Of a DNA stretch of 64,000 nt, positions 23,336-41,354 are shown one piece after another. Under the pieces are notes generated by a model, which was not told the DNA's origin, did not search any database, and saw only the letters and a program-made list of their open reading frames with translations. Origin of the DNA: a virus (Duplodnaviria; Caudoviricetes). The stretch covers positions 32,001 through 96,000 of the IMG/VR virus record IMGVR_UViG_3300029288_000080; one strand, 5' to 3'. Positions within the stretch are counted from its first letter, which is position 1. Each line of letters starts with the position of its first letter. The position numbers and the translations under genes are program-made.

Positions 23336-23376
23336 CGAAATGGCTTGACTGCTGAACCCCCTTGGGGTACAAATGT

Positions 23377-23583: not shown

Positions 23584-23625
23584 TCCTGCCCCCTTCAATA
23601 TTTTGTCGTGTCGGAGTACCGTGTA

Positions 23626-26034
23626 ATGCCCACGCCGCAGCGTCGCAGACATTCGGCCACCCTGTACAAGCTGGTTCGCCATCCTGAGTTTGAGCACGAT
23701 TTGCAGAAAATCGGGCACAATAGCGTGTTGACCAAAATGGTGGTCACGTTTATGCAACTGCAGGACGACCCACGTCCCATGGGGTACATTCAGTTGCGTG
23801 GCTTCCGTCAAGTCTGGTACAGGGTGGTCGTGGGGGATTACCGGCTCGTGTATCAAGTGGACGACACCGCCCACACGGTGTACTTGGCGCTTGCGGTGGA
23901 CCGAAAGCAGGTGTACCCACAATTGAAGCGGCGCATCAAAAACGCCATGCTGCAGTACCGAGGACACCGGTACCGTGTCGCCCAGGTGGAGCGTCGGGCT
24001 GCCAAGATCGTGATGTACCACGGGACCTCTTCGGCCCATTTGCCATCGATCCTGAAGCATGGGCTCAGGGCTGATCCCGGCCACCGTCGGTTCACCCTGG
24101 ACAGTAAAAATTTCGACCCCGAGCACGCAACTTACGGGGGCGCCTATCTGACCCCATGGATCCGGGAAGCCCAGAAGTTTGCTTCTGACGCAGTCGACGA
24201 CCAAACTGGTGCGGACCCACTGCTTTGCGTTGTCCAGGTGGAAACCAGGGCCGAGATGATTGTGCCTGACGAGGACCATTTTATCTCGCTGACCGACCCA
24301 TTCGTTTTGGAAATCCAGTGGGCCCTTGGACCCGACGCCACCATGCTGGATCTGCTCGTGGCGGTTCGAGACGGCACTGTAGACCTGGCTGATTGGGTAG
24401 CCCCGTGGATCGCAGCGCTGAAGAGTGATGAGGGTACCCGCAACATCGTGGTGGATCCTGAAGTATTATTGCGTCACAAAACTGAGATGGTCGGGTTGCT
24501 CGTCCTGATGGTGCAGTACCGGGTGGCCCAGTGGCCCACCCAAGATCCTGCTCGGCAGAAAATCCGTGCTGACCTGGGGGTACCGGATAAGGCCACGGCC
24601 CGTCAGCAGTTTGTTGAGGCGTTGGACCGTTTTTCCCGAAAAATCCAGAGGCTCACGGACCCCCAAGGGGCCAAGAGCAAAAGCGTCAGGTCACTCCAGG
24701 ATATTGGATTCCGCGGGGCCAACCGGATCCTTGGGATTTTGAAGTACAGGCTGGACTGGGATACCCTGGCTGGCGTCGTGGTCATGGGGGAACAGAATCC
24801 CAACGTCTTGGCCGCCGTCAAGGCCCTGTACCCGACCAAACCCTCGATCCAGTGGCAGGACCGCACAGGACAGGTCATTTTCCAGAAGCCCGCGGCCAAG
24901 GCTGCGGCCCGCCTGGCCTACCCTGTTGCTGCCCCCAACTGGGCAATGGAAAAACGTCGTATCACCGCAGCGATCCAGCGGCTCCGTGGAGTCGTCGAGG
25001 CTTGTGCTCCGTTGTTGCGAGATAGCCCCCAGGCAGAAAACATCCGTGATTATCTGGGAAACAACGCGACCGTACACGCCGAGCAAATCGCCGGGGTCCT
25101 GGGCTATTTGGAGAAGCCTACCCGCGGGCTGCTGGAGCGACTGGACCTCGGGGGTACTTTCCACCAGATCCAGGACCATTTGGATCTGTACCGCGAAAAA
25201 ATGGACGTGGTGGACCACGTCGTCCAGGACTACCAAAAAGAGTTGCAGCGTAGTGGTGCCGACGATTACTCTCAGGAAGACCTGGACCACCGGTACAACT
25301 TCACCCAGGACGTTAAACCGATCCTCATGGCCCTGGAGATGGTCCCGGGGATTCTGCAGGATTTTCGTAGATTTATCCAGTATGTCGACACTGATGCTCG
25401 CTACTTTGACCACGCCAACAAGGTGGCCCCGATGGGCGGTCGCCACGATGTAGTCCCGCCTGGTGTTGCTCCGGTCGAGATCATGTGGCACGCCACCACG
25501 GCGTATCGAGAAATCATGTCCGGTGGATTCAAAACCAAAGATGAACTGGGTGGCAAGGCCGCAGGGTTAGGTGGTGCGGTGGAAGGCATTAGTTTCACCG
25601 GGAGCCAGGAAATCGCCGAGGGGATCGCCGCGGCCCTGGTGGACCTGGTGAGGTTGCTCCGGGGTGACCTGACCCGCGAGGCTCTGGAGCAGTACGGGGC
25701 ATCCTTGGGGCTGGACGCCGCTACGGTCACCACGGCCTACCATAATGCTGTAGGTTCCAAAGCCAACCAGAATCCACTGGATGCGTTCAACTTCTACCAG
25801 GCGTTTCAACACATCTTGAGCCAGGCTGGGTATCAAGGACTTCGGTACGACCCGCTATTTTTCGGGATTGACCCAGCGGTCATGGCTCAGGTGGATCCCA
25901 AGAACATCGGGGTCATTGAAGCCAAGATTGACACGACCCAGGCCCATCGGTATCTCCGGTCCATGGAGGAATGGCGGGTGCCGAAATCCGCCATCCTGTC
26001 ATTCGGGCCCGTGGGCTCCCAGGTGCAACCGTGA
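23626..26034 (+). CDS. Polyvalent protein: RelE/ParE-like + ART-like + helical + ART-like
   Basis: RelE-like DPRP.G...YRVVVGDYRLVYQVDD; ART YHGTS...ILKHGL...AYLT; second WHAT...GFKT...ISFT...EEWRV. Confidence 0.7.
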   Translation: MPTPQRRRHSATLYKLVRHPEFEHDLQKIGHNSVLTKMVVTFMQLQDDPRPMGYIQLRGFRQVWYRVVVGDYRLVYQVDDTAHTVYLALAVDRKQVYPQLKRRIKNAMLQYRGHRYRVAQVERRAAKIVMYHGTSSAHLPSILKHGLRADPGHRRFTLDSKNFDPEHATYGGAYLTPWIREAQKFASDAVDDQTGADPLLCVVQVETRAEMIVPDEDHFISLTDPFVLEIQWALGPDATMLDLLVAVRDGTVDLADWVAPWIAALKSDEGTRNIVVDPEVLLRHKTEMVGLLVLMVQYRVAQWPTQDPARQKIRADLGVPDKATARQQFVEALDRFSRKIQRLTDPQGAKSKSVRSLQDIGFRGANRILGILKYRLDWDTLAGVVVMGEQNPNVLAAVKALYPTKPSIQWQDRTGQVIFQKPAAKAAARLAYPVAAPNWAMEKRRITAAIQRLRGVVEACAPLLRDSPQAENIRDYLGNNATVHAEQIAGVLGYLEKPTRGLLERLDLGGTFHQIQDHLDLYREKMDVVDHVVQDYQKELQRSGADDYSQEDLDHRYNFTQDVKPILMALEMVPGILQDFRRFIQYVDTDARYFDHANKVAPMGGRHDVVPPGVAPVEIMWHATTAYREIMSGGFKTKDELGGKAAGLGGAVEGISFTGSQEIAEGIAAALVDLVRLLRGDLTREALEQYGASLGLDAATVTTAYHNAVGSKANQNPLDAFNFYQAFQHILSQAGYQGLRYDPLFFGIDPAVMAQVDPKNIGVIEAKIDTTQAHRYLRSMEEWRVPKSAILSFGPVGSQVQP

Positions 26035-28052
26035 GCCACGACAAGGCCAACCTGACCTTCATGAACGAAGCGGTGGACCACTACGCTGGCCAGACCAACC
26101 TGGTCCTGACGGCCTACCAAGATCGCGTTGCCGTGGGGTCCATAGAATACACCGAATACCACGGGGTCCCCAGCATCTCGATGGTGACGGTCCGGCCTCA
26201 ATATCGTCGCCAAGGCATCGCGACTCAAATGCTTCGCTGGTTGCAACGGCAATACCCCGATGTCGAAATCGGAGGTCAGGACAACCTGACCGACCTGGGG
26301 GCCCAGTGGAGCCAGAATATTGCCTGGCAGGATCGACCTAATCCACGGTACCAAGAGTTGACCGAAGAAAAGGCCCAGTTGGAAGCCGAGGCCGACCGTT
26401 TAATGGCGGTGTTTGACCAGGGATCGGTGCCTAAAAACCAGTTGAACCAGCTCGGCGACGATATGAACCGGGTGCATGATCGGCTTTATCAGATCGAGGA
26501 GGAACTCCACGGGATGAAACCTGCCCGGCGTATTTTCACCGGGGCCACAGTGGAGCAACTGGACCAGCTATTTCCCCGGGCGGGCAAGCAGGTGGACGGT
26601 CGCGATGTTCGCCTCGGCCCTGTGGACAACACCGGGTCCATCGCGGCGTCGTTCAACGACTACGAAGTGCTGCCCGGTGTTAGAGAAATCCCCATGGGGT
26701 TGTTCGGTGATGCTCTGGACCCCTACAAATCCTACTACGCCAAAAACGATATTGAACGTTGCGAGGAACTGGCCGAAAAGATCAAAGATTCGGGCGAAAT
26801 ATCGCCCCTGATCATCGTGGTGGACCATGAAGGCTCCGAAGCCCCGTACATCCTGGAGGGTGGGCACCGAGGTTCGGCACTCTGGCTCCTGGGGGCCAAG
26901 TCATTCCCGGCTCTGGTTGTGCTGGACCAGGACGAAGTTGAAGACGACGTGGTCAAGACTGCCCAGACGGAACGCCACGCCTACCTATACAGTGCGGCGG
27001 CCAAACGGTACCTGTACCACGTGACCCCGTATCAAAACCTTCAGGATATTGCAGAGTATGGACTAAAGCCCCACACCAGTTACGTGCAAAAAGGCAAGGG
27101 TGTGTACCTCACGGAGGTCGCTGGTCTCCCAGCTTGGTGGCGCTGGGCTTACGACCGGTCTGGGTCCACGGTAGACTCGGTCACGAAAGAACATGTTTTT
27201 CTTGGTGCTGTGGTACTCAGGACCCCACTGCTCAGTCGCGCCGACCAGTTGAAACTGGACAAAATGGGCACTTGCGATGCTGAGGAGGAAGCTACTGCAC
27301 CTAATAATCTGAGAAGGTTTTTCAATCCTGAGCGAGTTCTGCCCAAGCAAACCGCATGTTCTCCAGAACACCAACGGCGTTACAACGAGTTGGTCAAGCA
27401 GTTGACCGACAAGGCCAAGGCATACCGGCACCGTGGGACAGTTCCACCCCAAGACCTACAGGTCTGGACCGGTACCCGCTGGACCAATGTGGTCAACTGG
27501 ACCAACGTGAAAGTCCCGTACAAGATCAAGGATTTGTTTGAATCGTTGGCAGCCAAGACCATGTACGACAAAAAGACTCTGCAGAAAACAGCCGAACCAC
27601 TTTTTGACGAAGGTTTCGTGGGGAACCGCTGGGGCAGCCAAGGTGCCGGCCTGCTCCTGACCACGGGCGAAAAGGTCCTGCTGTTACTCCGGAGCGACGA
27701 GGTCGAGGAACCCGGGACCTGGGGGATTTCTGGCGGGGCGGTCAGGCGTGACTCCGACACGGGCGACTTCCAGGACCTCAAGCAGGCCGCCCTCCAGGAA
27801 GCCCGCGAGGAAATGGGCCGGGTGCCACCCCATCGAATCGTTGGCCAATGGGTCTACCAGGAAGGTCGGTTCCGCTACACCACATTCGTCGGGATGGTTG
27901 ACCCCGAGGTTCTGGATCAATGGGAACCCAGGCTGAATTGGGAAAATGACGATTATGGCTGGTTCACACAAGATGAACTGGCCGACCTGGACCTGCATTT
28001 CGGCGTCGTGGCGCTCCTGGACGCTCGCCCCGATTTGGTATTCAAGGAATAG
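26031..28052 (+). CDS. Polyvalent protein: GNAT + ParB-like + ART-like + Nudix
   Basis: PQYRRQGIA (acetyl-CoA motif A); PLIIV...ILEGGHR (ParB/Srx); YLYHVT...IAEYGL...GVYLT; WGISGG...AALQEAREEMG (Nudix box). Confidence 0.78.
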   Translation: MSHDKANLTFMNEAVDHYAGQTNLVLTAYQDRVAVGSIEYTEYHGVPSISMVTVRPQYRRQGIATQMLRWLQRQYPDVEIGGQDNLTDLGAQWSQNIAWQDRPNPRYQELTEEKAQLEAEADRLMAVFDQGSVPKNQLNQLGDDMNRVHDRLYQIEEELHGMKPARRIFTGATVEQLDQLFPRAGKQVDGRDVRLGPVDNTGSIAASFNDYEVLPGVREIPMGLFGDALDPYKSYYAKNDIERCEELAEKIKDSGEISPLIIVVDHEGSEAPYILEGGHRGSALWLLGAKSFPALVVLDQDEVEDDVVKTAQTERHAYLYSAAAKRYLYHVTPYQNLQDIAEYGLKPHTSYVQKGKGVYLTEVAGLPAWWRWAYDRSGSTVDSVTKEHVFLGAVVLRTPLLSRADQLKLDKMGTCDAEEEATAPNNLRRFFNPERVLPKQTACSPEHQRRYNELVKQLTDKAKAYRHRGTVPPQDLQVWTGTRWTNVVNWTNVKVPYKIKDLFESLAAKTMYDKKTLQKTAEPLFDEGFVGNRWGSQGAGLLLTTGEKVLLLLRSDEVEEPGTWGISGGAVRRDSDTGDFQDLKQAALQEAREEMGRVPPHRIVGQWVYQEGRFRYTTFVGMVDPEVLDQWEPRLNWENDDYGWFTQDELADLDLHFGVVALLDARPDLVFKE

Positions 28053-28058
28053 GCAATC

Positions 28059-28505
28059 ATGTTGCTGCGATACAAGGGTGCTGTATACCAGGCGGTGAGC
28101 CAGGGTGCTCCTACCAGAACTGCGGCCACTCGACAAGCACGATTCTTTACTGTGGACGAAATGCGTGCTTTTGGTAGGAAGTCTCCCTACAGCGTGAAGA
28201 TTTTGATGAAGGCCAGGGAAGGTTTGCGCCCATTGGGATTTTTAGGCATGACCTGCCAGCAAGAATATTGCTCCACTGACGCTGATTTTGCAGATGAGGC
28301 AACGGCCAAGACTGTCCACTATAAGGCGGCTGGGGTGCTCCACGCCGTGATGAGCCATTACGGCGAAGTCGCGAAGACACAAGATGGCAACAGCGTTGTT
28401 TTGCGCGTGGAGGCATCCGGCGTGGAAGCCACTGTCTCGTGGTCACGGGCCCGCTGTATGTGCGAAAATCCTTGGCATGTCACGGTCGTGTGCTACTGCG
28501 TTTAA
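28059..28505 (+). CDS. hypothetical protein with LRYKGAVY leader
   Basis: Shared N-terminal motif followed by RTAA. Confidence 0.6.
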   Translation: MLLRYKGAVYQAVSQGAPTRTAATRQARFFTVDEMRAFGRKSPYSVKILMKAREGLRPLGFLGMTCQQEYCSTDADFADEATAKTVHYKAAGVLHAVMSHYGEVAKTQDGNSVVLRVEASGVEATVSWSRARCMCENPWHVTVVCYCV

Positions 28506-28531
28506 ACAGTGACAAGAAAGTTGGTGAAGTC

Positions 28532-29392
28532 ATGACCACCACGATCACCTTGGCTATCATGTTGGCGGTTTTCACTGGGGTGTTGTACGGGATTAAACGC
28601 TGGTGGCACCCTGGGGACCCCGCCGATATTCCCTTGGCCCACGTCGCCACCATGGGGATGGTGGCCGGTGTCTTGGCGGTCCTGGTGGGGTTCGGGTTCC
28701 TGTACCTGAGTTTCCAGTCGGCCCCGGTGCACCCGGCTGTCCAGCAAGCAATACAGGTCAAACCTGTGGTGTTCCGAGGGGTCACCCGGCGGGACGTCGT
28801 GGTCCAGTATCCTGGTGTCAGGGTCGTGGTCGACGACAGCGACCCCGGGGCCCCGCCGGTTGAGAATCTGCTGCTCCGGTGTCCTGCTCAAGACATTACC
28901 CACGTGCAACCTGACGGCTCGGTCCAGTGCGTCCAGGAGGGTACCGTAGCCGCCAGGGCGCTGTTGAGCCGGGGCCAAGATCTCCAGGATGTCCGAGATG
29001 CCACTCCATCGGTTCAAATCCAGGGATTCCTAACGACGGCCCCGGCCCAGGTCGCCACCGACGTGGCAGCCAGGAAGCCCATGGACCGGTACGCCGAGGT
29101 CGTCTATTTTGTCCTGACGTTCCTGGGGGTGCTGCTCCGGCTCTACTGGGATGTCGTGCAAGCCCCGAAAACGGGACGACGTCGTGCCACCCTGCTGGCT
29201 CCCCAGACCCTGGTGACCAGTCTCGTGCTGGCCATCGCGACCTATGCCATGATCATCCAGAGTGGCTTGGCCGGGACTAGCGACCTCTTGACGTTCAAGA
29301 CCGGGATTTTTGCTGTGTATAATGGCCTGCTTTCAAAATCTTTCCTGGACTTGGCAACATTGAAAACTGCCGCGACCCCCGCGAACCCGTAG
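28532..29392 (+). CDS. multi-pass membrane protein
   Basis: About 4-5 hydrophobic segments. Confidence 0.65.
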   Translation: MTTTITLAIMLAVFTGVLYGIKRWWHPGDPADIPLAHVATMGMVAGVLAVLVGFGFLYLSFQSAPVHPAVQQAIQVKPVVFRGVTRRDVVVQYPGVRVVVDDSDPGAPPVENLLLRCPAQDITHVQPDGSVQCVQEGTVAARALLSRGQDLQDVRDATPSVQIQGFLTTAPAQVATDVAARKPMDRYAEVVYFVLTFLGVLLRLYWDVVQAPKTGRRRATLLAPQTLVTSLVLAIATYAMIIQSGLAGTSDLLTFKTGIFAVYNGLLSKSFLDLATLKTAATPANP

Positions 29393-29417
29393 TAAGTACC
29401 TGGATACGAGGATTACG

Positions 29418-31019
29418 ATGCCACACCAAATTGTTGACCTTCGTGACCCCGCATGGAAACCCGCGAAGAACAGCATATTCTACGGAAGCGCCAGACGCGT
29501 CGAGTGGATGGGATCAGTGGGCAAAACCAAGATCTTTCTTTACCGCTGGGGCAACGGTAACCTCGTAGAATGGCGTGATCTATGCGACCAACTGCACGCT
29601 GACGGCGCTCCAGTGCAGGGTGTTGTACTGACCCGACAAGGTAGACTGATCGTCGAACACAGTATGGGTGACACGTCATGGTCGGGTGCACGTAATCGTT
29701 TTACTGGTGGGTTGCAACATGTTTTATTTCCTCTCCATGAGGCTGGGCTGATCCGCGACACCACCACGGTTTACGCAGGCAACTGGGCGTCAGTGACGGG
29801 ACAGCGTTTGGGCTTGGTCCGTGATTTATTGGCCCATCCCGAAGGATTGCCGGTGCCGAAGCGACTGGTTCTATACCATGGGACCAACAGCAAGGCTGCC
29901 GAGGACATTTTGCACCTTGGCCTCCGGGCCGTGCCGGTGGACCAGCGGGCCTGGAAAGGGGATAGGTTGTCTCAGCATCCCAGCTACCGCCAAGAAGCCG
30001 TGTACCTGACGGTGGACCCCCAGCAAGCGCAATACTACGCCAAGAAAGCTGTCAATGTGGCACGGCGACGTGGATCCCAAGGAGTTAAACCGGTAGTATT
30101 GCGGATAACGATTCCCTCCGGAAGTATTAAAAATCTTCGTCCAGACGACGATTACTTGGCCAAGGTGCAGAAGTCTGAGCAAGACGTGGACTGGCTGGAA
30201 TCACTGAAGTACATGTCGCAAGTGGCTTACCTAGGTAGCATCCCAGCCAATTGGATTAAGGTTGCGTGGGAAGGAGTCAAGGAAGAACAGAAATTGGCTG
30301 GTATTAAACCTACTATGACGATTCCTTCGCTCGACGATCTCCTGGCCCTGATGCATCCCGAGACCCTTGTGGCGGTTCGAGACACGTTGGAGCAGGACGC
30401 ACGGCAACGACGAGAAATCCGTGACCCCACCGAAGCCGAGATCGTCAGGGAAGCAAAACGACTGGCTCTTGAACAAAATCCTGACCTGCCTGGGCGGATC
30501 CGTCAGCGTCGCGATCCTCAAGACCGCACCAGGGCCCTGGTGGAACTGGATCAAGCCGTTGACAACTTGTACCCCGAGGTCCAGGAGGCTTTGACTGCCC
30601 AGCGGGTTGACCAGGCGGTGCACCAGGGATTGCAGGACCGATATGATTTAGCCGTAGAAAATATCCAGGTGATCGACGGCCTGGATTGCTTCCGGGTCAT
30701 GACGTTGTCGAGAGACCAGGACCCAACCGTGCTGTCTCCGCTGGGCATTTTCTGGGCCCATGAGATCGACGGTGCTGGCGATTACTTCGTCACGGACCAC
30801 TCTGCACGTAAGAGCCGCGGTGACGTTACCGTGATGTACCGGGCCAGGATCGATATTCAAGGCGTAGACATCACCAAGACCCTGGTGAACAATCTGATTA
30901 ATCCGCAAGAGACAGAAGTGCAGTTTCGCCCCGGGGCCGACATTTTCGTCTACGAAGTCCTGTGTCTGGAAGGCCAATGTCATGACGATGCCATTGTGGA
31001 CGCTTGGCGAAAATGCTGA
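29418..31019 (+). CDS. ART-like domain protein (possibly two ART-like domains)
   Basis: LYHGTN...ILHLGL...VYLT...AQYYA...VVLRI; C-terminal FRVM...LGIFW...ETEV. Confidence 0.65.
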   Translation: MPHQIVDLRDPAWKPAKNSIFYGSARRVEWMGSVGKTKIFLYRWGNGNLVEWRDLCDQLHADGAPVQGVVLTRQGRLIVEHSMGDTSWSGARNRFTGGLQHVLFPLHEAGLIRDTTTVYAGNWASVTGQRLGLVRDLLAHPEGLPVPKRLVLYHGTNSKAAEDILHLGLRAVPVDQRAWKGDRLSQHPSYRQEAVYLTVDPQQAQYYAKKAVNVARRRGSQGVKPVVLRITIPSGSIKNLRPDDDYLAKVQKSEQDVDWLESLKYMSQVAYLGSIPANWIKVAWEGVKEEQKLAGIKPTMTIPSLDDLLALMHPETLVAVRDTLEQDARQRREIRDPTEAEIVREAKRLALEQNPDLPGRIRQRRDPQDRTRALVELDQAVDNLYPEVQEALTAQRVDQAVHQGLQDRYDLAVENIQVIDGLDCFRVMTLSRDQDPTVLSPLGIFWAHEIDGAGDYFVTDHSARKSRGDVTVMYRARIDIQGVDITKTLVNNLINPQETEVQFRPGADIFVYEVLCLEGQCHDDAIVDAWRKC

Positions 31020-31044
31020 TTTATCCTACACGTTAATATCTATC

Positions 31045-31359
31045 GTGGAAATAAAATTGCCGGACCAACTGGTTCGCGAGCAAGCCATCAGGGCTTCTCG
31101 TGAGTACCTCACCACGTTCGCCAAGATTGTCCAGCAGGTCAGGGAAGTCCTTGCTGATATTCAAGGCCCCGATGAACTTCGTCGATTTGGTGGAGAGTCG
31201 GGTGTCTTGGCCATGACGGCCGAGTCGGTTTTGTCAGAAACTCCATTCAGCGAACAAAATCAGGGTACCTGCCTTGCCTTTTGTTCACTGGCGTCGGTGA
31301 TCAGGCGCGATATTGCCGACGGCACCTTGGCCCAGGCGGTCAAAAAGGAAACAACATGA
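31045..31359 (+). CDS. hypothetical protein
   Basis: GTG start just after the promoter motif at 31029. Confidence 0.5.
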   Translation: MEIKLPDQLVREQAIRASREYLTTFAKIVQQVREVLADIQGPDELRRFGGESGVLAMTAESVLSETPFSEQNQGTCLAFCSLASVIRRDIADGTLAQAVKKETT

Positions 31360-31646
31360 ATAGAATTATTCGTCACGCTGGACATCTGTACCGGGAAGTC
31401 AAGACCGCTGATGCTGTCCCGGCGGAAGACCCTGTCGAGTTCATGGAGCAACTTGGCGAAAACTACGCCAAGGATTTGGCCCGCCAGGGTCTACGACCAT
31501 CCACCGGTGGCCAGCAGATGGATACTGACAGTTTCAACGCGTTCGAGAATCATTTTGACCGTGAAATGACCGATGAGGAGCACGACGCCTGGTTCACAGG
31601 ATTCAATCGTGCTGCCCAACGGTTGTTCAAAAACCGACATAAATAA
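31356..31646 (+). CDS. small acidic protein with IRHAGHLY leader and VKTAD
   Basis: RBS AAGGA; shared motif. Confidence 0.65.
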   Translation: MNRIIRHAGHLYREVKTADAVPAEDPVEFMEQLGENYAKDLARQGLRPSTGGQQMDTDSFNAFENHFDREMTDEEHDAWFTGFNRAAQRLFKNRHK

Positions 31647-31648
31647 TC

Positions 31649-31858
31649 ATGGAAGAAAAAGCCAAAGTCCAGGGAACCATGCGAGTGAATTGTTATGCTG
31701 TCCTCAGCGATTGCGTGGAACGTGGGGTGCAATCCGGTTGGTACCATGCCCACAAGCACACTGACGACCCCGACGAGGAATCCATTCGGCGCCACGTTGT
31801 TGACGATGTCTTGAACGAAATCTGTGAGTACTTCAACTTTGACGATCTTGAGCAATAG
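31649..31858 (+). CDS. hypothetical protein
   Basis: Small ORF in operon. Confidence 0.6.
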   Translation: MEEKAKVQGTMRVNCYAVLSDCVERGVQSGWYHAHKHTDDPDEESIRRHVVDDVLNEICEYFNFDDLEQ

Positions 31859-31866
31859 GTACTGAA

Positions 31867-32754
31867 ATGCCATTTGATCTTGGGATTGACCCTGGTGCGG
31901 ATCCTGGCCTTGACCCTGTGGTTGATGAACCCGAGGTCAAGACCCCGGCGAAAAACTGGAAAGCCCATGAGTCGGAAATCATCCGGGCGATCCGGGATCA
32001 ACTCGGACATCCTGGCGACGACCAGCGGGGCGAAGTTTCGCTCGTGGGCCCCAAGGTAGTCTCGACCTACGGGTCCAGTGACCTGGGCTACCAAATCAAG
32101 GGTTCTTTCCGGGCTAAGTTTCCGGTTCAGGGTCCAGGGCCCTACTGGTTCGTGGCGAACATTTCTCCTGACGATACCCTGATGTTTCCGGTGATCACGA
32201 CTGCTAATGATGGCAACCCCATCCGCGAGGCCCAGGTGAAACAGGTCAAAACTGCCGCCACGGATGTTCCGCACCTTTTTGCCGCGACGGTCAAGCCGCT
32301 GGAAAATCTCTACCGCTTCTGGACCGCGGTGCTCAAAGAAGCGAAATCCCACGAGTCGGACTCCAGCACGTCGGTCTGTATTTCCAGCGAGCCCGGCGAG
32401 TACTCGATGTTTTCGGCCGACTGGATGGAGCGGGGGCTTCAGCAGACCATCGAGATGTTCCACGGGCTCTTGACCTTGTGGAAAAGCAGCACCGCGGCCG
32501 TCAAGGCCATGCCGGTAGCCTATGCGTACTACAACCAGCTCGCGGGGATCCGTGAAGCCGTGGTCGACTTGTCCGAGCATGCCCTGGACCACCAGGTGGG
32601 CTTTTTCTGTATTGACCAGCGGGGTGTCCGGGCACTCTTGACCTTGATCACGCAGGCCCGCCGCGACGCCATGGACTTGGCCAAATATTTGCCGTTGAAA
32701 ATGGCTCCTCGACGTAAGCAAGCTGCTGTTTCACCGTGGCGCAGGCTTTCCTGA
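31867..32754 (+). CDS. hypothetical protein (VKTAA linker)
   Basis: ORF in operon. Confidence 0.65.
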   Translation: MPFDLGIDPGADPGLDPVVDEPEVKTPAKNWKAHESEIIRAIRDQLGHPGDDQRGEVSLVGPKVVSTYGSSDLGYQIKGSFRAKFPVQGPGPYWFVANISPDDTLMFPVITTANDGNPIREAQVKQVKTAATDVPHLFAATVKPLENLYRFWTAVLKEAKSHESDSSTSVCISSEPGEYSMFSADWMERGLQQTIEMFHGLLTLWKSSTAAVKAMPVAYAYYNQLAGIREAVVDLSEHALDHQVGFFCIDQRGVRALLTLITQARRDAMDLAKYLPLKMAPRRKQAAVSPWRRLS

Positions 32755-32972
32755 TGGACCATCCAGTAAATCCCAATGCGGAGTCCAACGCGGCCCTGAT
32801 GCTGGCGGCGGTCCGACAAATCATGGCGAGGGTCACGACCGTTGAGGATCAAATATTGGTCCTTAGCACTGATTTAGAACAACATGGGGTAACCTGCGAG
32901 CAGTTGCGGGTCGCGATTGAGATGTTGCGACAGGACGTCACGGCCTTGAAGGCGGCGATTCCGCGAGATTAG
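32754..32972 (+). CDS. small coiled-coil protein
   Basis: TGATG coupling. Confidence 0.5.
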   Translation: MDHPVNPNAESNAALMLAAVRQIMARVTTVEDQILVLSTDLEQHGVTCEQLRVAIEMLRQDVTALKAAIPRD

Positions 32973-33087
32973 CACGTTACTTTATAGTGGTATGGAAATC
33001 CATGGTGATTTCCATGTGGAGCAATCATGGGCCTCTACCAGCAGTCCGCCAAGCACCTTAATCTTTAGTGGGTCTACTATTGTTATC

Positions 33088-34335
33088 ATGCTGATTAAAC
33101 GCGCGCACAAGGTGGAGCTGAGCCCAAACAAGGTGCAGGAACTGGCCCTGGCTAAGTCTGCCGGCGTTGCCCGTTTTGCGTACAACTATGGTCTTGAACT
33201 TCACGCACGGCACTACAAAGAAACCGGAAAACATCTTTCTGCTGTAAGTATGCATAAAATATTATGTGCAGAGAAAAAAGACAAGTTTCCATGGATGTAC
33301 GAGGTGTCAAAATGTGCTCCACAGGAAGCGTTCTACAATGTGGAGGCCGCGTTCATAAATTTTTTCAAAAAGCGAAGTGCACATCCTAAATTTAAGAAAA
33401 AGGGGCGTAGTAAAGATTCTTTCACTCTCGACAATTCTGTTTTCAACACAAAAAGTATTAGAGGCCGAGGCGTACACCTGCCTAAAATAGGCACTGTTCG
33501 GTGTAAAGAAATTCTTAGTATTGAAGGCAGGATTCTGTCCGCCACAGTATCTAAGGATGCAGACCGATGGTTTATCTCAGTTATGCAAGAAGTCGAGATT
33601 GATTTAAGAGAAGAAGACAAACCCAAAGGGAATCCCATTGGGATTGACCTTGGGATTAAAACGCTAGTCACGACGTCCGACGGTGAGGAAAAACAGGAAT
33701 TTGTTCTTCCGTATTATCTGGACACAGAAGAAAAGAAAATAAAGAGAGCACAGAAGAGGCTTTCAAAGAAGGCAAAGAAGTCTAAAAACTGGTTCAAGCA
33801 GGGCATCAGGGTAGCACGACTCTACCGTAAGCTGCGGAACAAGCGTACTGATTTTATTCATAAAACGACGACACAACTGGCAAAAACCAAGTCAGTCATC
33901 GTCATGGAAGACCTTAACGTTAAAGGAATGGTGAAGAATCATTGTTTGGCCAAATCTATTAGCAACGCAGCTTTTGGTGAAATAAAGCGCCAACTTGAGT
34001 ACAAAACTATTTGGTATGGGTCGGAGTTGATCATGGTGTCAAGGTGGTTCCCAAGCAGTAAAATGTGCTCAGCATGCGGCTTCATCAAGAAAGATTTGAG
34101 TTTGAGCGAAAGAACTTGGATCTGCCCTGATTGCCACACCGAGCATGAACGCGATTTTAATGCTGCGACTAATATCTTGGTTGAAGGGCTAAAAATCAAT
34201 ACCGTGAGCCACACGGGAATTAACGCTTGTGGAGATGGGAGTTCATTTGTTGACTCGTCAACAAATCAGCCTGTCGTTGAAACAAGAAGGGGCCAATCCT
34301 CTATTCTTCAAAACAATGGAGGAGTATCCTCATGA
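33088..34335 (+). CDS. tnpB: TnpB RNA-guided endonuclease (IS605/IS607 OrfB type)
   Basis: ARFAYNYGL HTH, PKFKKK, GIDLGIK, VMEDLNV, FPSSKMCSACG...CPDC, RDFNAA; AT-rich relative to flanks. Confidence 0.92.
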   Translation: MLIKRAHKVELSPNKVQELALAKSAGVARFAYNYGLELHARHYKETGKHLSAVSMHKILCAEKKDKFPWMYEVSKCAPQEAFYNVEAAFINFFKKRSAHPKFKKKGRSKDSFTLDNSVFNTKSIRGRGVHLPKIGTVRCKEILSIEGRILSATVSKDADRWFISVMQEVEIDLREEDKPKGNPIGIDLGIKTLVTTSDGEEKQEFVLPYYLDTEEKKIKRAQKRLSKKAKKSKNWFKQGIRVARLYRKLRNKRTDFIHKTTTQLAKTKSVIVMEDLNVKGMVKNHCLAKSISNAAFGEIKRQLEYKTIWYGSELIMVSRWFPSSKMCSACGFIKKDLSLSERTWICPDCHTEHERDFNAATNILVEGLKINTVSHTGINACGDGSSFVDSSTNQPVVETRRGQSSILQNNGGVSS

Positions 34336-34730
34336 GCGGCGATTGGACCCGAGTTTGGGGCGGTGGAAGTAGTTGCGGGGGATCCTGCGACCAATACATC
34401 TGCATCCCGCGGTCCGCTGTGTCCAATCCACCGGAATCCACCACGTCGATCCTGGACGGTCTCCCGACCAACATCACGACCATCGGGGCCGCCATGTCGG
34501 TCTGGATGGAGCGGTTGCGGCGTCGCCTTGACGCCAAGAGTTGTCTCGTGACCGTCACGACCCTCAACACCACGTATGTCGCGACACTGCCCGGCGCGAC
34601 CGTGACCATGACGATCTCTGGCGGATATTTTCCGCTGTCGGTTCAGTACACCCGGGCCCAGTCCACTGGGTCCGCAACCTTTGACAATTTTCCCGCCGCG
34701 CTCGACTGGTTGGTCGCGCGTTTGGCATGA
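34332..34730 (+). CDS. hypothetical protein, probably the 3' part of a gene interrupted by the tnpB insert
   Basis: ATG lies at the end of the AT-rich insert with RBS GGAGG; can be joined in frame with 32992..33042. Confidence 0.55.
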   Translation: MSGDWTRVWGGGSSCGGSCDQYICIPRSAVSNPPESTTSILDGLPTNITTIGAAMSVWMERLRRRLDAKSCLVTVTTLNTTYVATLPGATVTMTISGGYFPLSVQYTRAQSTGSATFDNFPAALDWLVARLA

Positions 34731-34796
34731 CGACCGCGTCTCACCTTTCAACTATACCAACGCGGCGTTCACGATCACATCAGGAGGATTTTGACC

Positions 34797-36308
34797 ATGC
34801 GTAAAGTTCCAGTTGGTAAGAATGTCGCTCGCCGGCCTGTAGCGCCCCAGTCCACCGTGGCTGGCCGCCTCGCAGCTCTCCGGGCCCGTAGCCGTCGGGT
34901 CGCCGAGGGTTTCGAGAAGTTCACCGACGAGCCCGAGGTTGACCCCCGGGACGTGGAGTTCCTCGACGAGGAGCTTCCCGAGGGCGATATGGGTGATCTC
35001 GGTGACCTTGGCGATCTTGGTGACCTGGGCGACCTCGGGGATTTCGAGCCCTTGGATTCTGAGGAAGGCGGCGACGAGGGTGGCTGCGGTTGCCCGGTGG
35101 GCCAGCACTCCGAGTGCGTAGACGACGAGGCCGGTGAGGCTGACGAGAAGGATGACGACAAGGAGGAAAAGGACGACGACAAGGAAGACAAGAAGGAGAA
35201 AAAGGAAAAGGACGACGAGGACAAGGATGACGACAAGGAGGACGACGTGAAGGAAGACAAGAAGGAGAAGGACGCGTTGGTAGAGGAGCGGCTGGCCCGT
35301 TTCAAGGCGATCCAGAAGACCCGTCAGGCCGAGGCCTTCAAGGCTGCCCTGCCGGCCAAGAAGCCCGTTGCTGCCCCGGTCAAGACTGCGGAACCCGTTG
35401 TCCCCGTGGCTGCCCCCGCTCCGATCAAGACGGCCGAACCCGTTGTGGAGCCCGCAGCCGTGGTGGCACCTGCTGCCCCGGAGGCCGAGGAGTCCAAGAT
35501 TTCGTGGAGCCCCCTGGTCACCGAGTCCATCCTGGCGGACCTCAAGGATCCCGAGGTTGACCTGACCCTCAAGTCGGCTTCGTCCAACCCGTACTATGTG
35601 CTCTGGATCAACGAGAAGCCCGTGGGTGAGCTTCATGAGGCCGACCTGGACCTCGACGATGCCGGCAAGGACACGTTCCGGTCGGCCCAGTACGTCAGTG
35701 GCGTCCGGGGCGTGATCCAGCAGTTCGGTGCCGTGGAGGCTCTCCGGGACCTCAAGCTCCGGTACTACGCTGCCAGCACCCAGGAGAACGACGCGATCAA
35801 GCGGGCCAAGACCGAGATCGCCCAGGATGCCGATGCTGCGTTCCGCAAGCGTGTCGCCACCATGGTGAACGATATGTTCTCGACCATGAACCTGGCGTTC
35901 CAGGCGTCGCAGAAAAATTTCATTTTGCAAAACGCCCTCAAGGACGCGGTCGTCGAGAATTTCCGGTCCGCTGGGGTGCCCGAGGGTGTCGCGATCGACC
36001 TGATCGAGGACGCCTTCACGAAGGCGGGGCCCGAGTATTTCAAGGCGATGCTCAACAAGGCCCAGGAGTGGCTGGGCTACGAGCCCGAGGCACTTCGGCA
36101 GATCGAGGCCGAGGTTACCGCCATGCAGTACCGGCATCCCCGTGACCAGTTCGGTAGCCAGATCAACGACGAGATCCCTGCCGTGACGGTTCCCCGGGCC
36201 GCCAACGTGGCCCGGGTGGCCCAGACGGTTGTCGAGGATGACCTCGACACCATGATGGCGGCGGCCCGTCGAGTGGGTCGCGCCACCGTGAATCGTCCCC
36301 GCCAGTAA
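34797..36308 (+). CDS. Prohead core/scaffold-like protein
   Basis: Basic N-terminus, (GDL)n repeat, D/E/K-rich tract, KTAE motifs; upstream of protease; codon bias like the MCP. Confidence 0.55.
   Translation: MRKVPVGKNVARRPVAPQSTVAGRLAALRARSRRVAEGFEKFTDEPEVDPRDVEFLDEELPEGDMGDLGDLGDLGDLGDLGDFEPLDSEEGGDEGGCGCPVGQHSECVDDEAGEADEKDDDKEEKDDDKEDKKEKKEKDDEDKDDDKEDDVKEDKKEKDALVEERLARFKAIQKTRQAEAFKAALPAKKPVAAPVKTAEPVVPVAAPAPIKTAEPVVEPAAVVAPAAPEAEESKISWSPLVTESILADLKDPEVDLTLKSASSNPYYVLWINEKPVGELHEADLDLDDAGKDTFRSAQYVSGVRGVIQQFGAVEALRDLKLRYYAASTQENDAIKRAKTEIAQDADAAFRKRVATMVNDMFSTMNLAFQASQKNFILQNALKDAVVENFRSAGVPEGVAIDLIEDAFTKAGPEYFKAMLNKAQEWLGYEPEALRQIEAEVTAMQYRHPRDQFGSQINDEIPAVTVPRAANVARVAQTVVEDDLDTMMAAARRVGRATVNRPRQ
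34983..35045 (+). repeat. 9-bp tandem repeat encoding GD(M/L/F) x7
   Basis: ggcgatatg ggtgatctc ggtgacctt ggcgatctt ggtgacctg ggcgacctc ggggatttc. Confidence 0.85.
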
Positions 36309-36314
36309 GTTCTT

Positions 36315-36348
36315 TGGGGCCGGCAGGTCAAATCTTGCGCCCCCTTTT
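36315..36348 (+). terminator. intrinsic terminator-like hairpin
   Basis: GGGGC..GCAGG-TCAAA-TCTTGC-GCCCC followed by TTTT. Confidence 0.5.
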
Positions 36349-36383
36349 CAGTGCTGCGGAATGTTGTGAAAAAAGGTAAATCT

Positions 36384-36668
36384 ATGAACCGTGTCATTCG
36401 CCACCACGGCCACATTTACAAGAAAAGCACTACTCAGGTTCTAGCCGATGGTCAGCCGCGTGATTTACTGAGCATGGCAGGGGAACACATTTTGCTCGCT
36501 GTGGGCAGTTTAGAGAGGGTCATCAACGGTCAAGAAGACCCCCAGTTTTTCGTGGAAAGTGACTCGTCGGGCAAGACGCTGTTCAGCATGGCAGAGAGAC
36601 TAAAACAAATGCTCCGACTTATTGACAGGATTCACGACAGTATGGACAGCAAAGACTACTCAGATTAA
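36384..36668 (+). CDS. small protein with IRHHGHIY leader
   Basis: RBS AAGGT; shared motif. Confidence 0.6.
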   Translation: MNRVIRHHGHIYKKSTTQVLADGQPRDLLSMAGEHILLAVGSLERVINGQEDPQFFVESDSSGKTLFSMAERLKQMLRLIDRIHDSMDSKDYSD

Positions 36669-36709: not shown

Positions 36710-37486
36710 ATGTCAGCACCGTACAGAATCGTCCAGCAAGGCCCCGGGATCCACGTCGGCGACGTCATGTCGGCCACCCTGGTTGACGGCCGTCCCCTCA
36801 CGATCGAGGGGTACAGGCTTGAGCAGTACCAGCGGTCCGGCAAGACCATTGTGGCCGGTGAGGGACTTAATGCCTGTGCCTGCGGGGCCCTGGAGATTGA
36901 CTGGCTTCCTTTTGCCGCCGAGCAGTACCACTGCAGCCCCGATATCAAGGACTACGTCCTGGTAGAAGTGCCCACGGTAGTTGCCACTTTCCCTAACCGA
37001 AATGGCGATGCTTTCCCCTACGAGGAACTGACCGCGTGGCGCACCATGGCGGGACGCCCTGCGTACAAGACATTCATTGGAAAGCCGGTCCACCAGGACC
37101 ACGACAACCAGGACGACACCAAGGCCAAGGGGGTCATTTTTGACGCGACACTTCGGAAGCATCGTGGTCAGCCCCATGTCGTGATTTTGAAGGGCTTCGA
37201 CCGGTCCAAAGACCAGCGGCTTGCCGAAATGGTCCAGAAAAAAAACCGTGTTGGCCATTCCATGGGGACCCTGGTTGAGGAAACTGAATGTTCCATCCCG
37301 TCGTGTCGCTATCGCGGCGACGGGATCAAAACCTGCCAGTGCATCCGTCAGGGTGCCGGCAAGGGTGAAATCGTCAACGGACACCTTGTTTATGAATTGC
37401 TCCGTCGGTTCACCTTCATAGAGGACTCAAGCGTAGAGGACCAGGCTAATGTTTCAGCCGTGAGCGACCGCATCTGGAATCCATAG
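36710..37486 (+). CDS. Prohead (maturation) protease-like protein with Zn-finger insert
   Basis: PNRNGDAF, YKTFIGKPVHQDH (His), KGVIFDA, GHSMG (Ser), C..C..C, FIEDSSV; located between portal and MCP. Confidence 0.65.
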   Translation: MSAPYRIVQQGPGIHVGDVMSATLVDGRPLTIEGYRLEQYQRSGKTIVAGEGLNACACGALEIDWLPFAAEQYHCSPDIKDYVLVEVPTVVATFPNRNGDAFPYEELTAWRTMAGRPAYKTFIGKPVHQDHDNQDDTKAKGVIFDATLRKHRGQPHVVILKGFDRSKDQRLAEMVQKKNRVGHSMGTLVEETECSIPSCRYRGDGIKTCQCIRQGAGKGEIVNGHLVYELLRRFTFIEDSSVEDQANVSAVSDRIWNP

Positions 37487-37494: not shown

Positions 37495-38514
37495 ATGACC
37501 ATTTTCTATATCGACACCGTTGAGGCTCTGGACCGCTGGTTCGGCAAGATCAAGGGATACACCCGCGTGGAAGCCAACAACACCGGTTACTACCAAGAGG
37601 ACATGGAGCCGTCGTTCATCAATGGCGAAGAACTTGTCCAGGCGGTTCTGGACCAGATGCACCCCTATGTCATCCGGGCTTATTCTGAGCCGGAACTCAT
37701 GACTGTCGACGTGGATATGCGGACCCTGCTCTACGACTATATGGTGGGGACTGGTGCCCGCGACGGCGACTACACCGAGCAGGATCTTGAGGCCGAGATG
37801 GAAGACAACGCCCTCGGGATCCTCACGGGCGTAAAGCGCGAAATGGAAATCAGGGTAGACCCATACCAGTACGTTCATGAAGATTTTAATGCTGACCAAG
37901 GCGGCGAAGAAGCGCCTGCCCAGCGACATTCTCACGTAACCCATGGCTCCCAGGAGCCGCGAAAGGAATCTGTCATGACCCAGAGGAACCGTCCCGCACG
38001 CCGCCGTGCCAATGCTGATGTTGCTCGCGCGCAGGCCCGCACCGCCATGAAGCTCCGGATGGAGAACCAGCGGACAGCAGCCGTGAACCGTCTCCGCCGT
38101 CGTCTCGCTGCTGTCCGGGCCGCCAGGGCCGAGCGGGTTGCCGCTGCCCAGCCCGAGGCCCAGGAGACCCGTCGTCCCAGCCGTATCCTCAGGTCTGCTG
38201 CCGAGCGTTCCGTGGCCCGTCGGGACCACGAGGTCACGACCAAGAGCGTGGCCCGCGATGAGGTTCGTCGTCGCATCGCCGCGATCCGCCAGAAGGCCGC
38301 GGCGGCCCGGTTGGCCGCTGGCCAGCAAGATACTCAGCCCGAGGTCAAGCCGGCCGATCGTTTTGCTGCCCTTCGTGAGCGCCTGGCCCAGCGGCGTCGC
38401 ATTGCTGCGATCCGGACCGCCCTGGCCGAGCGTCGTGCTTCGGTAGAACATGACGCTGAAGTGGCCCCTCCGGTCATCCGGGTCAAGGGCGTCAGGTACG
38501 AGAGGATCGACTGA
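37495..38514 (+). CDS. acidic domain fused in frame to an Arg/Ala-rich domain (internal start at 37975)
   Basis: Internal AAGGA RBS + ATG MTQRNRP. Confidence 0.55.
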   Translation: MTIFYIDTVEALDRWFGKIKGYTRVEANNTGYYQEDMEPSFINGEELVQAVLDQMHPYVIRAYSEPELMTVDVDMRTLLYDYMVGTGARDGDYTEQDLEAEMEDNALGILTGVKREMEIRVDPYQYVHEDFNADQGGEEAPAQRHSHVTHGSQEPRKESVMTQRNRPARRRANADVARAQARTAMKLRMENQRTAAVNRLRRRLAAVRAARAERVAAAQPEAQETRRPSRILRSAAERSVARRDHEVTTKSVARDEVRRRIAAIRQKAAAARLAAGQQDTQPEVKPADRFAALRERLAQRRRIAAIRTALAERRASVEHDAEVAPPVIRVKGVRYERID

Positions 38515-41088: not shown

Positions 41089-41354
41089 CCAGATGTTCCG
41101 CACCGGCTCCGCCATGCTGGACGGGATCCTCTCGACCGTTGCGAAACAGCAGTTGGCCAGCAGGGAAGATCGTGTTGATGAAGCCCGGCAACAGTTTGAC
41201 TCCTGCTCGGTGCGAGAAATGTTGACTGGGATCGCCGACCTTCAGGCCCAGCAGTACCGGGATTTCGACCTCCATTTTGGCAATCAGCCGAAGTCCAATT
41301 TTTCCATGACCATCAGGGCTGCCCTGGCCCAGTGGGCCGCAGACATTACTCGTG

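What the first reader, a model, noticed from the sequence alone, without database searches (positions are those of the whole stretch)
23947..36420. Shared N-terminal peptide [IL][RQ][YH]xG[HA]xY on four unrelated proteins: candidate capsid-targeting sequence
Seen: MLQYRGHRYRVA (internal Met at 23947, just before the first ART), MLLRYKGAVYQA (28059), MNRIIRHAGHLYRE (31356) and MNRVIRHHGHIYKK (36384). Downstream sequences are unrelated. In three cases a RRAA/RTAA/KTAD site follows within ~15 residues. Known: T4 internal proteins share a ~10-aa capsid targeting sequence that is removed by the prohead protease. Inference: this is a portable packaging tag plus cleavage site, potentially useful for engineered protein loading.
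Basis: partly seen in the sequence, partly recalled or inferred. Interest (0 to 1): 0.8.

Follow-up and report, generated by a model that had tools for sequence, protein, structure and literature searches.

The report
Portable head-loading tag in jumbo phage
A 177-kb uncultured phage and its close relatives put the same ~14-residue peptide on the ends of many unrelated proteins encoded around the capsid-assembly genes, including ADP-ribosyltransferase effectors and the scaffold-like protein. It is most likely an address tag that loads proteins into the phage head, but neither loading nor clipping has been observed.

Summary
The four peptides are at the stated coordinates. The strict pattern is expected 0.04 times in the genome and occurs 4 times. 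A weight matrix finds 7 N-terminal copies in the 177.6-kb genome, with a clear score gap to the next hit. Their codons differ, so selection acts on the peptide. The bodies are unrelated apart from two ART paralogues.

About 90 non-redundant copies occur in the close clade (head protease about 55% identical or more). The consensus is P-x-x-[IVL]-[RK]-[YVF]-x-G-x-h-Y-[RV]-[LR]-[AV]. Most copies are N-terminal, but some are C-terminal, tandem or internal. One ends the scaffold-like gene after the protease in this phage and in relative G1.

In three genomes the tags cluster between portal and major capsid gene. The protease is T4 gp21-like (Z 10.4). Sister clades carry different shared leaders on head-module genes.

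The capsid-targeting reading is therefore the best explanation (about 0.6) but is unproven. The claimed RRAA/RTAA/KTAD cleavage site is not supported as a general feature. The receptor is unknown.

This scan has noted analogous tags with other sequences in other giant-phage windows. Novelty: a new variant of the T4 capsid-targeting principle.

The parts
21062..23335 (+). Portal protein; upstream border of the tag-rich interval
   Evidence: phrog_16240 portal, E 4e-75
23608..26034 (+). Polyvalent protein: RelE/ParE-like domain (res 20-103), then the tag (res 114-126), then an H-Y-E type ART and further unassigned sequence
   Evidence: phrog_1213 RelE-like E 5e-6; Pfam ParE 2e-4 and PARP 3e-3, both below cut-off. 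Tag-ART alignment with two paralogues/orthologues
23947..23985 (+). Tag copy 1 (MLQYRGHRYRVAQ), at an internal Met with no Shine-Dalgarno sequence upstream
28059..28505 (+). Tagged 148-aa protein of unknown family; tag at 28059-28097 (MLLRYKGAVYQAV)
31356..31646 (+). Tagged 96-aa protein of unknown family; tag at 31356-31400 (MNRIIRHAGHLYREV)
34791..36308 (+). 505-aa head-module protein: basic N-terminus, long acidic low-complexity stretch, and a conserved C-terminal domain found next to the protease gene in close and far clades. Candidate core/scaffold component and candidate tag receptor
   Evidence: tblastn: 17/18 close and 16/62 far loci
36384..36668 (+). Tagged 94-aa protein directly upstream of the protease; tag at 36384-36428 (MNRVIRHHGHIYKKS)
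36710..37486 (+). Prohead (head maturation) protease, T4 gp21 type
   Evidence: phrog_18299 E 5e-49. AF2 model pLDDT 82. T4 gp21 5jbl Z 10.4, rmsd 2.9 A, 140 residues aligned; herpesvirus assemblins Z 5-6.6
37495..38514 (+). Scaffold-like 339-aa protein at the position of T4 gene 22: acidic N-terminus, Arg/Ala-rich repeats, and a C-terminal tag
   Evidence: The positional counterpart in G1 (8164-8907) has no BLAST similarity but ends in two tags
38467..38511 (+). C-terminal tag copy PPVIRVKGVRYERID, followed by the stop codon
   Evidence: matrix score 23.2
38872..39771 (+). Head-module protein conserved only in the tag-bearing clade (17/18 close loci, 0/62 far). Candidate receptor/partner; contains a degenerate LQYRGVVVAR
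44309..45424 (+). Major capsid protein (HK97-type); downstream border of the tag-rich interval. Its N-terminal ~25 residues are specific to the tag-bearing clade
   Evidence: phrog_2522 E 2e-38

Best explanation
The peptide is a short, probably beta-hairpin docking module: P-x-x-[IVL]-[RK]-[YVF]-x-G-x-h-Y-[RV]-[LR]-[AV], usually followed by an Ala/Glu/Pro-rich linker. Proteins use it to enter the assembling prohead of this phage clade.

The scaffold-like protein carries the same module at its C-terminus. Cargo proteins carry one or several copies at either end. Cargo includes the RelE-like-ART polyvalent protein, a second ART, and many small fast-evolving proteins. Tagged proteins would therefore bind one abundant receptor in the prohead core or shell and be enclosed when the shell closes. 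The gp21-type protease would then process the contents. Effectors such as the ARTs would be ejected with the DNA, as T4 Alt is.

Shown: the tag exists, is selected at peptide level, is portable, is position-independent, is limited to one clade, and clusters in the head module.
Inferred: hairpin structure, binding to a prohead component, packaging, any cleavage, and ejection.
For: (1) Non-random and terminal: 4 observed against 0.044 expected. There are 7 N-terminal copies with a clean score gap, and all lie within 5 residues of an ATG.
(2) Synonymous differences between copies show selection on the peptide. Bodies are unrelated.
(3) Clade-wide: 110 hits on the gene strand in 593 kb of close relatives, against 0 for the reversed matrix and about 0 real hits in 1.19 Mb of distant relatives. 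Of 90 non-redundant copies, 67 lie within 12 codons of an ATG and at least 8 are C-terminal; others are tandem. The first matrix, built only from this genome, already found copies in G1 and G2.
(4) Location. In G0, 5 of 9 copies lie in the 24-kb portal-to-MCP interval (P 0.004). In G2, all 4 lie between portal and protease. In G1, 5 lie in the 12-kb head module.
(5) The scaffold-position gene ends in the tag in G0 and G1, although the rest of the protein has diverged beyond BLAST. In other relatives the gene after the protease starts with it.
(6) All 3 genes of the isolated minus-strand cassette (tag-128 aa, tag-ART, tag-95 aa) are tagged. The cassette is preceded by the same promoter-like motif as the structural gene at 42450.
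(7) The protease is gp21-type. In T4 that protease works with 10-residue N-terminal capsid-targeting sequences on internal proteins and on the ART Alt (PMC9026906, PMC5694885).
(8) Sister clades with the same protease family have different shared leaders on head-module genes: MKIKVFVSES, MKIxISLSA, and M-x-K-I-x-I-x-x-D-G-S-F-E-A, the last including PaBG gp266. N-terminal pairs scoring 30 or more numbered 86, against 17 for internal segments.
(9) The cargo type fits predicted virion-packaged polyvalent effectors with ART and RelE/BECR-like domains (PMC5512222).
Against: - No direct evidence exists that any tagged protein is in a virion. The phage is uncultured, and no cultured relative carries this tag.
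- No conserved protease site follows the tag. Glu or Asp at position 12 occurs in about a third of copies, and 25 of 76 have no Glu within 13 residues. The K/R-T-A site is rare.
- One lower-scoring C-terminal copy (genome 126904) lies beside TnpB and ParB-like genes, not head genes.
- G1 has a second cluster of 7 tagged genes at 55-64 kb whose module assignment is unknown.
- The hairpin structure rests on the sequence pattern and on a model too poor to trust (pLDDT 25 over the tag).
Confidence: 0.6

Rival explanations
1. The tag is an assembly handle of the prohead core itself. Tagged proteins are structural core or inner-body components that join through the hairpin, either hairpin to hairpin or to one hub. 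They are mostly degraded or stay as internal proteins; the tag is not an address for injected enzymes.
For: - The scaffold-like protein and other conserved-position head genes carry the tag.
- Multi-tag, Lys-rich proteins exist, such as L016 20108-20704 with four copies.
- Many tagged proteins are small, helical and fast-evolving, like core proteins.
Against: - Enzymes are tagged too: two ARTs in G0 and the 1128-aa tag-ART protein in G2.
- An isolated 3-gene effector-like cassette outside the head module is fully tagged.
- This reading overlaps with the main one, since T4 internal proteins are also core components.
Confidence: 0.17
2. The tag is a recognition element (exosite or processing signal) for the gp21-type protease or another head-module factor. 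It marks proteins for cleavage or activation and does not drive localisation.
For: - The protease is the only enzyme conserved next to the tags across the clade.
- The protease has a clade-specific N-terminal extension of about 60 residues.
- Three of 7 G0 tags end in Y-R-E, and Ala then Glu/Asp often follows. In T4 and relatives the protease cuts after Glu.
Against: - No uniform cleavable motif follows the tag.
- Extreme N-terminal copies would release only 10-15 residues.
- C-terminal and tandem copies fit a binding module better than a cleavage signal.
Confidence: 0.12
3. The tag is recognised by a non-virion system: a modifying enzyme, a chaperone or a degradation adaptor.
For:
- The tag's invariant Tyr and conserved Arg/Lys could be modification sites.
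- Some copies lie outside the head module.
Against: - No candidate modifying enzyme co-occurs with the tag in the 18 close loci. The clade-specific conserved genes are small non-enzymatic-looking proteins inside the head module.
- The tags cluster strongly between portal and MCP.
- The scaffold-like protein shares the tag.
Confidence: 0.08
4. The shared peptide is a remnant of common ancestry or recombination joints, or arises by chance, and has no function of its own.
For: The two ART proteins are true paralogues and share tag plus domain.
Against: - 4 observed against 0.044 expected, and the reversed matrix gives 0 hits.
- Codon-level divergence with peptide conservation.
- The tag persists on orthologous-position genes whose bodies have diverged beyond detection.
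Confidence: 0.02

Closest known systems
Phage T4 capsid targeting sequence (CTS) of IPI/IPII/IPIII and the N-terminal propeptide of Alt, removed by prohead protease gp21 (Mullaney and Black 1996, as reviewed in PMC9026906 and PMC5694885)
   Same: - A short terminal peptide is shared by otherwise unrelated proteins.
- The phage has a gp21-type protease.
- The cargo includes an ADP-ribosyltransferase.
- The genes sit beside portal, protease and scaffold genes.
- Related phages show clade-specific variation of the leader.
   Different: - No sequence likeness to MKTYQEFIAE.
- Longer (about 14 residues), Gly/Tyr-centred and probably a beta-hairpin.
- Not obligatorily N-terminal: C-terminal, internal and tandem copies occur.
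- Also present on the scaffold-like protein.
- No uniform L/I-x-E cleavage site.
- Packaging and clipping are untested.
Encapsulin cargo-loading peptides, and the C-terminal coat-binding segments of phage or herpesvirus scaffolding proteins (own knowledge; P22-based cargo loading reviewed in PMC9962691, seen by title and abstract only)
   Same: - A conserved short terminal peptide is tethered by a flexible linker to diverse cargo.
- The same peptide sits on the scaffold-position protein's C-terminus.
- The shell is HK97-fold.
   Different: - Binding to the shell is not shown here.
- The sequence is unrelated.
- In known tailed phages, natural cargo is not reported to share the scaffold's coat-binding peptide.
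Polyvalent proteins and MuF-anchored effectors of phages (Iyer, Burroughs, Anand, de Souza, Aravind 2017, PMC5512222)
   Same: - Multi-domain effector proteins (RelE/BECR-like, H-Y-E type ART, GNAT, Nudix) are encoded within the virion module.
- They are predicted to be packaged and injected.
   Different: - No MuF or portal fusion was detected.
- A 14-residue tag would take the anchoring role.
- The same tag also serves many small single-domain proteins.
Long N-terminal propeptides of phiKZ/SPN3US head and ejection proteins (PMC5694885)
   Same: - Giant phages with diverged gp21 homologues.
- Their propeptides are inferred to target proteins into the prohead.
- Paralogues share identical N-termini.
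   Different: - Those propeptides are 80-160 residues long.
- They end in [A/S/G]-x-E sites confirmed by mass spectrometry.
- Here the module is about 14 residues and has no confirmed site.

Membership tests
T4-type capsid targeting sequence system | Short terminal peptide shared by otherwise unrelated proteins of one phage | tested here: met
   7 N-terminal copies; bodies unrelated
T4-type capsid targeting sequence system | Phage encodes a gp21-type (assemblin-fold) prohead protease next to scaffold and MCP genes | tested here: met
   phrog_18299; 5jbl Z 10.4
T4-type capsid targeting sequence system | Tag ends in the protease cleavage motif (hydrophobic-x-Glu) and is removed on maturation | tested here: inconclusive
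   Three of 7 G0 tags end in Y-R-E. Across the clade, position 12 is Glu or Asp in about 34% of copies, but 25 of 76 have no Glu within 13 residues. Removal itself cannot be tested in silico.
T4-type capsid targeting sequence system | Tagged proteins are present in proheads or virions, and the tag suffices to load a foreign protein | not testable with these tools
   The phage is uncultured and no cultured phage carries this tag
T4-type capsid targeting sequence system | Sequence relatedness to the T4 IPIII/IPII CTS | tested here: not met
   Consensus P-x-x-I-R-Y-x-G-x-h-Y-R-L-A compared with MKTYQEFIAE: no likeness. Analogy at most, not homology.
Scaffold or encapsulin-type shell-docking peptide | Same peptide on the scaffold-position protein and on cargo, at a terminus, with a flexible linker | tested here: met
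Scaffold or encapsulin-type shell-docking peptide | Peptide binds the interior of the HK97-fold shell protein | not testable with these tools
   Needs binding assays or cryo-EM of procapsids
Polyvalent / MuF-anchored packaged effectors | Several conflict-type enzymatic domains in one polypeptide encoded in the virion module | tested here: met
   RelE-like plus PARP-like ART in 23608-26034; GNAT plus PARP-like plus Nudix in 25971-28052. Several of these hits are below Pfam cut-offs.
Polyvalent / MuF-anchored packaged effectors | MuF (SPP1 gp7) or portal domain fused as head anchor | tested here: not met
   No MuF hit in Pfam or PHROGs scans of the proteins between portal and protease

The most novel reading that the evidence does not exclude
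The tag is the scaffold protein's own prohead-docking hairpin, and cargo has copied it. Any protein with one or more copies at either end is co-assembled into the head. This would be an encapsulin-like, position-independent cargo-loading code in a tailed phage. Each clade of gp21-protease phages would have its own code, co-evolving with a receptor. In this clade the candidate receptors are the MCP N-arm, the 38872-39771 protein and the C-terminal domain of 34791-36308.
Probability: 0.3. Interest if true: 0.75.

Novelty: new variant of a known kind. Interest (0 to 1): 0.55.

Why it matters
If the tag is a head-loading address, three things follow.
- It gives a simple sequence rule for reading the packaged and injected proteome of a whole clade of uncultured large phages. 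That proteome includes ADP-ribosyltransferase and RelE-like effectors.
- It extends the T4 capsid-targeting principle to a different kind of signal: hairpin-like, usable at either terminus or in tandem, and shared with the scaffold.
- The comparison across sister clades suggests that clade-specific address peptides are a general feature of phages with gp21-type proteases. That would help annotate the many unknown genes in their head modules.

Practical use for engineered protein loading would need a cultivable member or a reconstituted procapsid.

Tried and rejected
- Complex prediction of the MCP (26-row alignment A3) with the tagged 96-aa protein 31356-31646 scored 0.30 and 0.22 against a mark of 0.32. 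The tool's verdict was 'no answer'. It is neither support nor evidence against.
Context for the 110 protease homologues came instead from IMG/VR loci.
- The AF2 model of the tag-ART N-terminal 300 residues, from a 3-row alignment, was too poor to use (pLDDT 46). The ART assignment therefore rests on weak Pfam PARP hits and the H-Y-E-like alignment.
- The apparent PaBG hit to the tag (VRFRGHVYGQ) lies out of frame with the annotated genes and is rejected as chance.
- I tried to link a PaBG leader-bearing protein to its published virion proteome. Gene numbering and molecular weights could not be matched.
- K/R-T-A as a cleavage site after the tag occurs in 5 of 76 copies, which is only weak enrichment.
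- megablast of the region and tblastn of the 34791-36308 C-terminal domain against GenBank phages found no match.
- The protease profile found no sequence-level match in PDB. Fold comparison was needed.
- Pfam and PHROGs gave nothing for the small tagged proteins or for most large tagged proteins of relatives.
- P. putida phage Voja-6 shows no clear shared leader of this kind.
Full report
**Setting**

The window is bases 32001-96000 of a single 177,603-bp virus contig with 57.8% G+C. Nearly all genes in the region are on the + strand.

| Window coordinates | Gene | Evidence |
|---|---|---|
| 16887-20621 | Large terminase, with a large insertion | phrog_17415 |
| 21062-23335 | Portal | |
| 36710-37486 | Head maturation protease | phrog_18299 |
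| 42450-43304 and 43463-44281 | Two paralogous virion structural proteins | |
| 44309-45424 | Major capsid protein | phrog_2522 |

An AF2 model of the protease from a 24-row alignment has pLDDT 82. Its best structural match is T4 gp21 (5jbl: Z 10.4, rmsd 2.9 A, 140 residues aligned). Herpesvirus assemblins follow at Z 5-6.6. GenBank phages are only distant relatives: PaBG, Lu11, and Erwinia, Dickeya and Rhizobium jumbo phages share 24-29% portal identity.

**Observation**

- The strict pattern occurs 4 times in the six-frame translation of the whole genome. The expected number is 0.044. In 200 shuffles the mean was 0.045 and the maximum 1. The reversed pattern gave 0 hits.
- A weight matrix finds seven copies scoring 21.9 or more, and the next hit scores 13.8.
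- The three extra copies head all three genes of an isolated minus-strand cassette at genome 26205-27934. The cassette encodes a tagged 128-aa protein, a tag-ART of 350 aa and a tagged 95-aa protein.
- All seven copies lie within five residues of an ATG (P about 1e-8).
- Codons differ between copies, so the peptide is what is conserved, not the DNA.
- With the tag removed, the bodies show no similarity, except for the two ART proteins (E 3e-16).
- Copy 1 (23947) is internal. It follows a complete RelE/ParE-like domain in the same frame and has no Shine-Dalgarno sequence.

**Extension within the genome**

Following a lead from another first-reader note (e1-5823332), I confirmed that ORF 37495-38514 ends in PPVIRVKGVRYERID. 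This ORF lies right after the protease, at the position of T4 gene 22. It has an acidic N-terminus and Arg/Ala-rich repeats. A weaker C-terminal copy, VRYQGRIFIRR, ends a 135-aa ORF beside TnpB and ParB-like genes at genome 126.9 kb.

**Relatives**

- Two related IMG/VR contigs, G1 (78 kb) and G2 (53.6 kb), were already hit by the matrix built from this genome alone.
- A profile of 24 protease homologues then retrieved 80 protease-anchored loci.
- In the close clade (protease about 55% identical or more; 593 kb) a refined matrix gives 110 hits on the gene strand, and its reversed form gives 0. In 1.19 Mb of more distant loci there are 6 hits. These share one position, which in PaBG lies out of frame with the annotated genes, so I reject them.
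- Of 90 non-redundant copies, 67 lie within 12 codons of an ATG. At least 8 lie within 15 residues of a stop. Several are tandem.
- The extended consensus is P(-3, 70%)-x-x-[IVL]-[RK]-[YVF]-[KRNA]-G(100%)-x-h-Y(97%)-[RV]-[LR]-[AV]. An Ala/Glu/Asp/Pro-rich stretch follows.
- This pattern suggests a two-stranded hairpin around the invariant Gly. The one model covering a tag drew strands at residues 2-4 and 7-9, but its pLDDT there was about 25, so this remains an inference.
- G1's counterpart of the scaffold-like gene has no BLAST similarity to ours but ends in two tags. A 198-aa Lys-rich protein in L016 has three N-terminal tags and one C-terminal tag.
- In several relatives the gene after the protease starts with the tag.

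**Where the tags sit**

| Genome | Position of tag copies | Source |
|---|---|---|
| G0 | 5 of 9 copies in the 24.4-kb portal-to-MCP interval (binomial P 0.004) | |
| G2 | All 4 between portal (31.7-33.9 kb) and protease (50.1 kb) | |
| G1 | 5 in the 12-kb head module, plus a second cluster of 7 at 55-64 kb of unknown role | |

The minus-strand cassette in G0 is preceded by CACGTTAATCTATAACGG. The same promoter-like motif stands before the structural gene at 42450 and at about seven other sites.

**What is tagged**

- Two H-Y-E-like ARTs in G0, and a 1128-aa tag-ART protein in G2.
- A RelE-like-tag-ART fusion.
- Many small proteins with no family assignment.

The neighbouring ORF 25971-28052 (GNAT, PARP-like, Nudix) has no tag. 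This set resembles the polyvalent effectors that Iyer et al. predict to be packaged and injected (PMC5512222). It also resembles T4 Alt, a packaged ART with a 7-residue N-terminal propeptide (PMC9026906).

**Comparative support**

I compared the N-terminal 22-26 residues of ORFs within each distant locus. This showed that other clades with this protease family have their own shared leaders on head-module genes.

- MKIKVFVSES(S): four adjacent genes in L052 and three in L061.
- MKIxISLSA: L068, L075, L078, L080 and L081.
- M-x-K-I-x-I-x-x-D-[GD]-S-F-E-A-V-A-A: L047, L049, L050, L054-L058 and L073, and PaBG gp266 (MALIHINADGSFEAVAA).

N-terminal pairs scoring 30 or more numbered 86, against 17 for internal segments. 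The PaBG-type leader has the same strand-Gly-strand-aromatic layout as our tag and ends in F-E-A. That fits cleavage after Glu, as in T4, phiKZ and SPN3US. Clade-specific leader peptides therefore look like a general property of this phage supergroup. That is what a targeting code co-evolving with a receptor would produce.

**Cleavage**

[KR]-T-A follows 5 of 76 tags, 2.6 times background. Three of the seven G0 tags end in Y-R-E. Position 12 is Glu or Asp in about a third of clade copies. However, 25 of 76 copies have no Glu within 13 residues. Whether the tag is clipped is open.

**Receptor**

Unknown. These head genes are conserved only in the tag-bearing clade:
- 38872-39771: 17/18 close loci, 0/62 far.
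- 41352-41774: 14/18 close loci.
- 34332-34730: 11/18 close loci.

The first ~25 residues of the MCP and the first ~60 residues of the protease are also clade-specific. These are the candidates. The single complex-prediction job gave no verdict and is listed only under Tried and rejected.

**Verdict**

- The capsid-targeting reading is the best explanation (about 0.6), with three changes. The tag is position-independent. It is shared with the scaffold-like protein. It has no established cleavage site.
- Rivals are a core-assembly handle, a protease recognition element, and a tag for a non-virion factor. The last follows a caution from e1-127136.
- The scan has noted analogous shared leaders, with other sequences, in several other giant-phage windows. 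The principle is therefore not unique to this genome. This particular hairpin-like, two-ended tag is a new variant.

Noticed in passing
window 23362-23946: A complete RelE/ParE-like toxin domain (23608-23946) is fused in frame upstream of the tag-ART. A 73-aa ORF (23362-23583) with no family hit precedes it and could be its antitoxin. The tag's Met lacks a Shine-Dalgarno sequence, so the toxin domain is probably part of the packaged polyprotein.
   Followed up: partly
window 25971-28052: The GNAT / PARP-like / Nudix ORF overlaps the preceding tagged ORF by 64 nt and has no tag of its own. A frameshift fusion, or co-packaging through the neighbour, would explain how it is loaded. Not tested.
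   Followed up: no
loci L052 14314-15814; L061 11731, 13013, 16312; L049, L054, L073; PaBG L091 1110-2039: Sister clades have other shared N-terminal leaders on head-module genes: MKIKVFVSES, MKIxISLSA and M-x-K-I-x-I-x-x-D-G-S-F-E-A. The last includes cultured phage PaBG gp266, which could be tested at the bench.
   Followed up: partly
window 6891, 32975, 33056, 42360, 55421; genome 27976(-), 108030, 120999(-), 132790: A promoter-like motif CACGTTA[AC]T[CT]T(T)ATAGTRG occurs about nine times. It stands before structural genes, before tnpB and before the tagged minus-strand cassette.
   Followed up: partly
window 38872-39771 and 53793-55385: Degenerate tag-like segments. LQYRGVVVAR lies near the N-terminus of the clade-specific head protein. 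VIRVANGVVHYAD (one residue inserted) lies near the start of the 530-aa ORF, whose G1 homologue begins MLYRGHLYRL. The Arg-rich leaders at 39788 (NAFRRLAD) and 51056 (LRGTRRVA) may be half-tags.
   Followed up: partly
L016 20108-20704 (also L020 19168-19782): A 198-aa, extremely Lys-rich protein with three tandem N-terminal tags and one C-terminal tag. It looks like a basic internal, DNA-associated protein.
   Followed up: no
window 16887-20621: The large terminase is 1244 aa. An insertion of roughly 500 residues matches phrog_9666 and, weakly, a recombinase family. It may be an intein or a homing element.
   Followed up: no
window 28439-29392, 31867-32754, 34791-36308, 38872-39771, 46855-50880: [VIL]-[KR]-T-A-[ADE] recurs in head-region proteins (VKTAD, VKTAE, IKTAE, VKTAA, LKTAA, TRTAA). 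It may be a processing site, but it is not tied to the tag.
   Followed up: partly
window 9998-11470, 32992-34335, 60582-61241; genome 125432-126580, 128124-129644: Mobile elements: a transposase (phrog_506), TnpB-like ORFs (one confirmed by Pfam at 32992-34335; those at genome 125-130 kb judged from their translated sequence only), and a GIY-YIG homing endonuclease.
   Followed up: no
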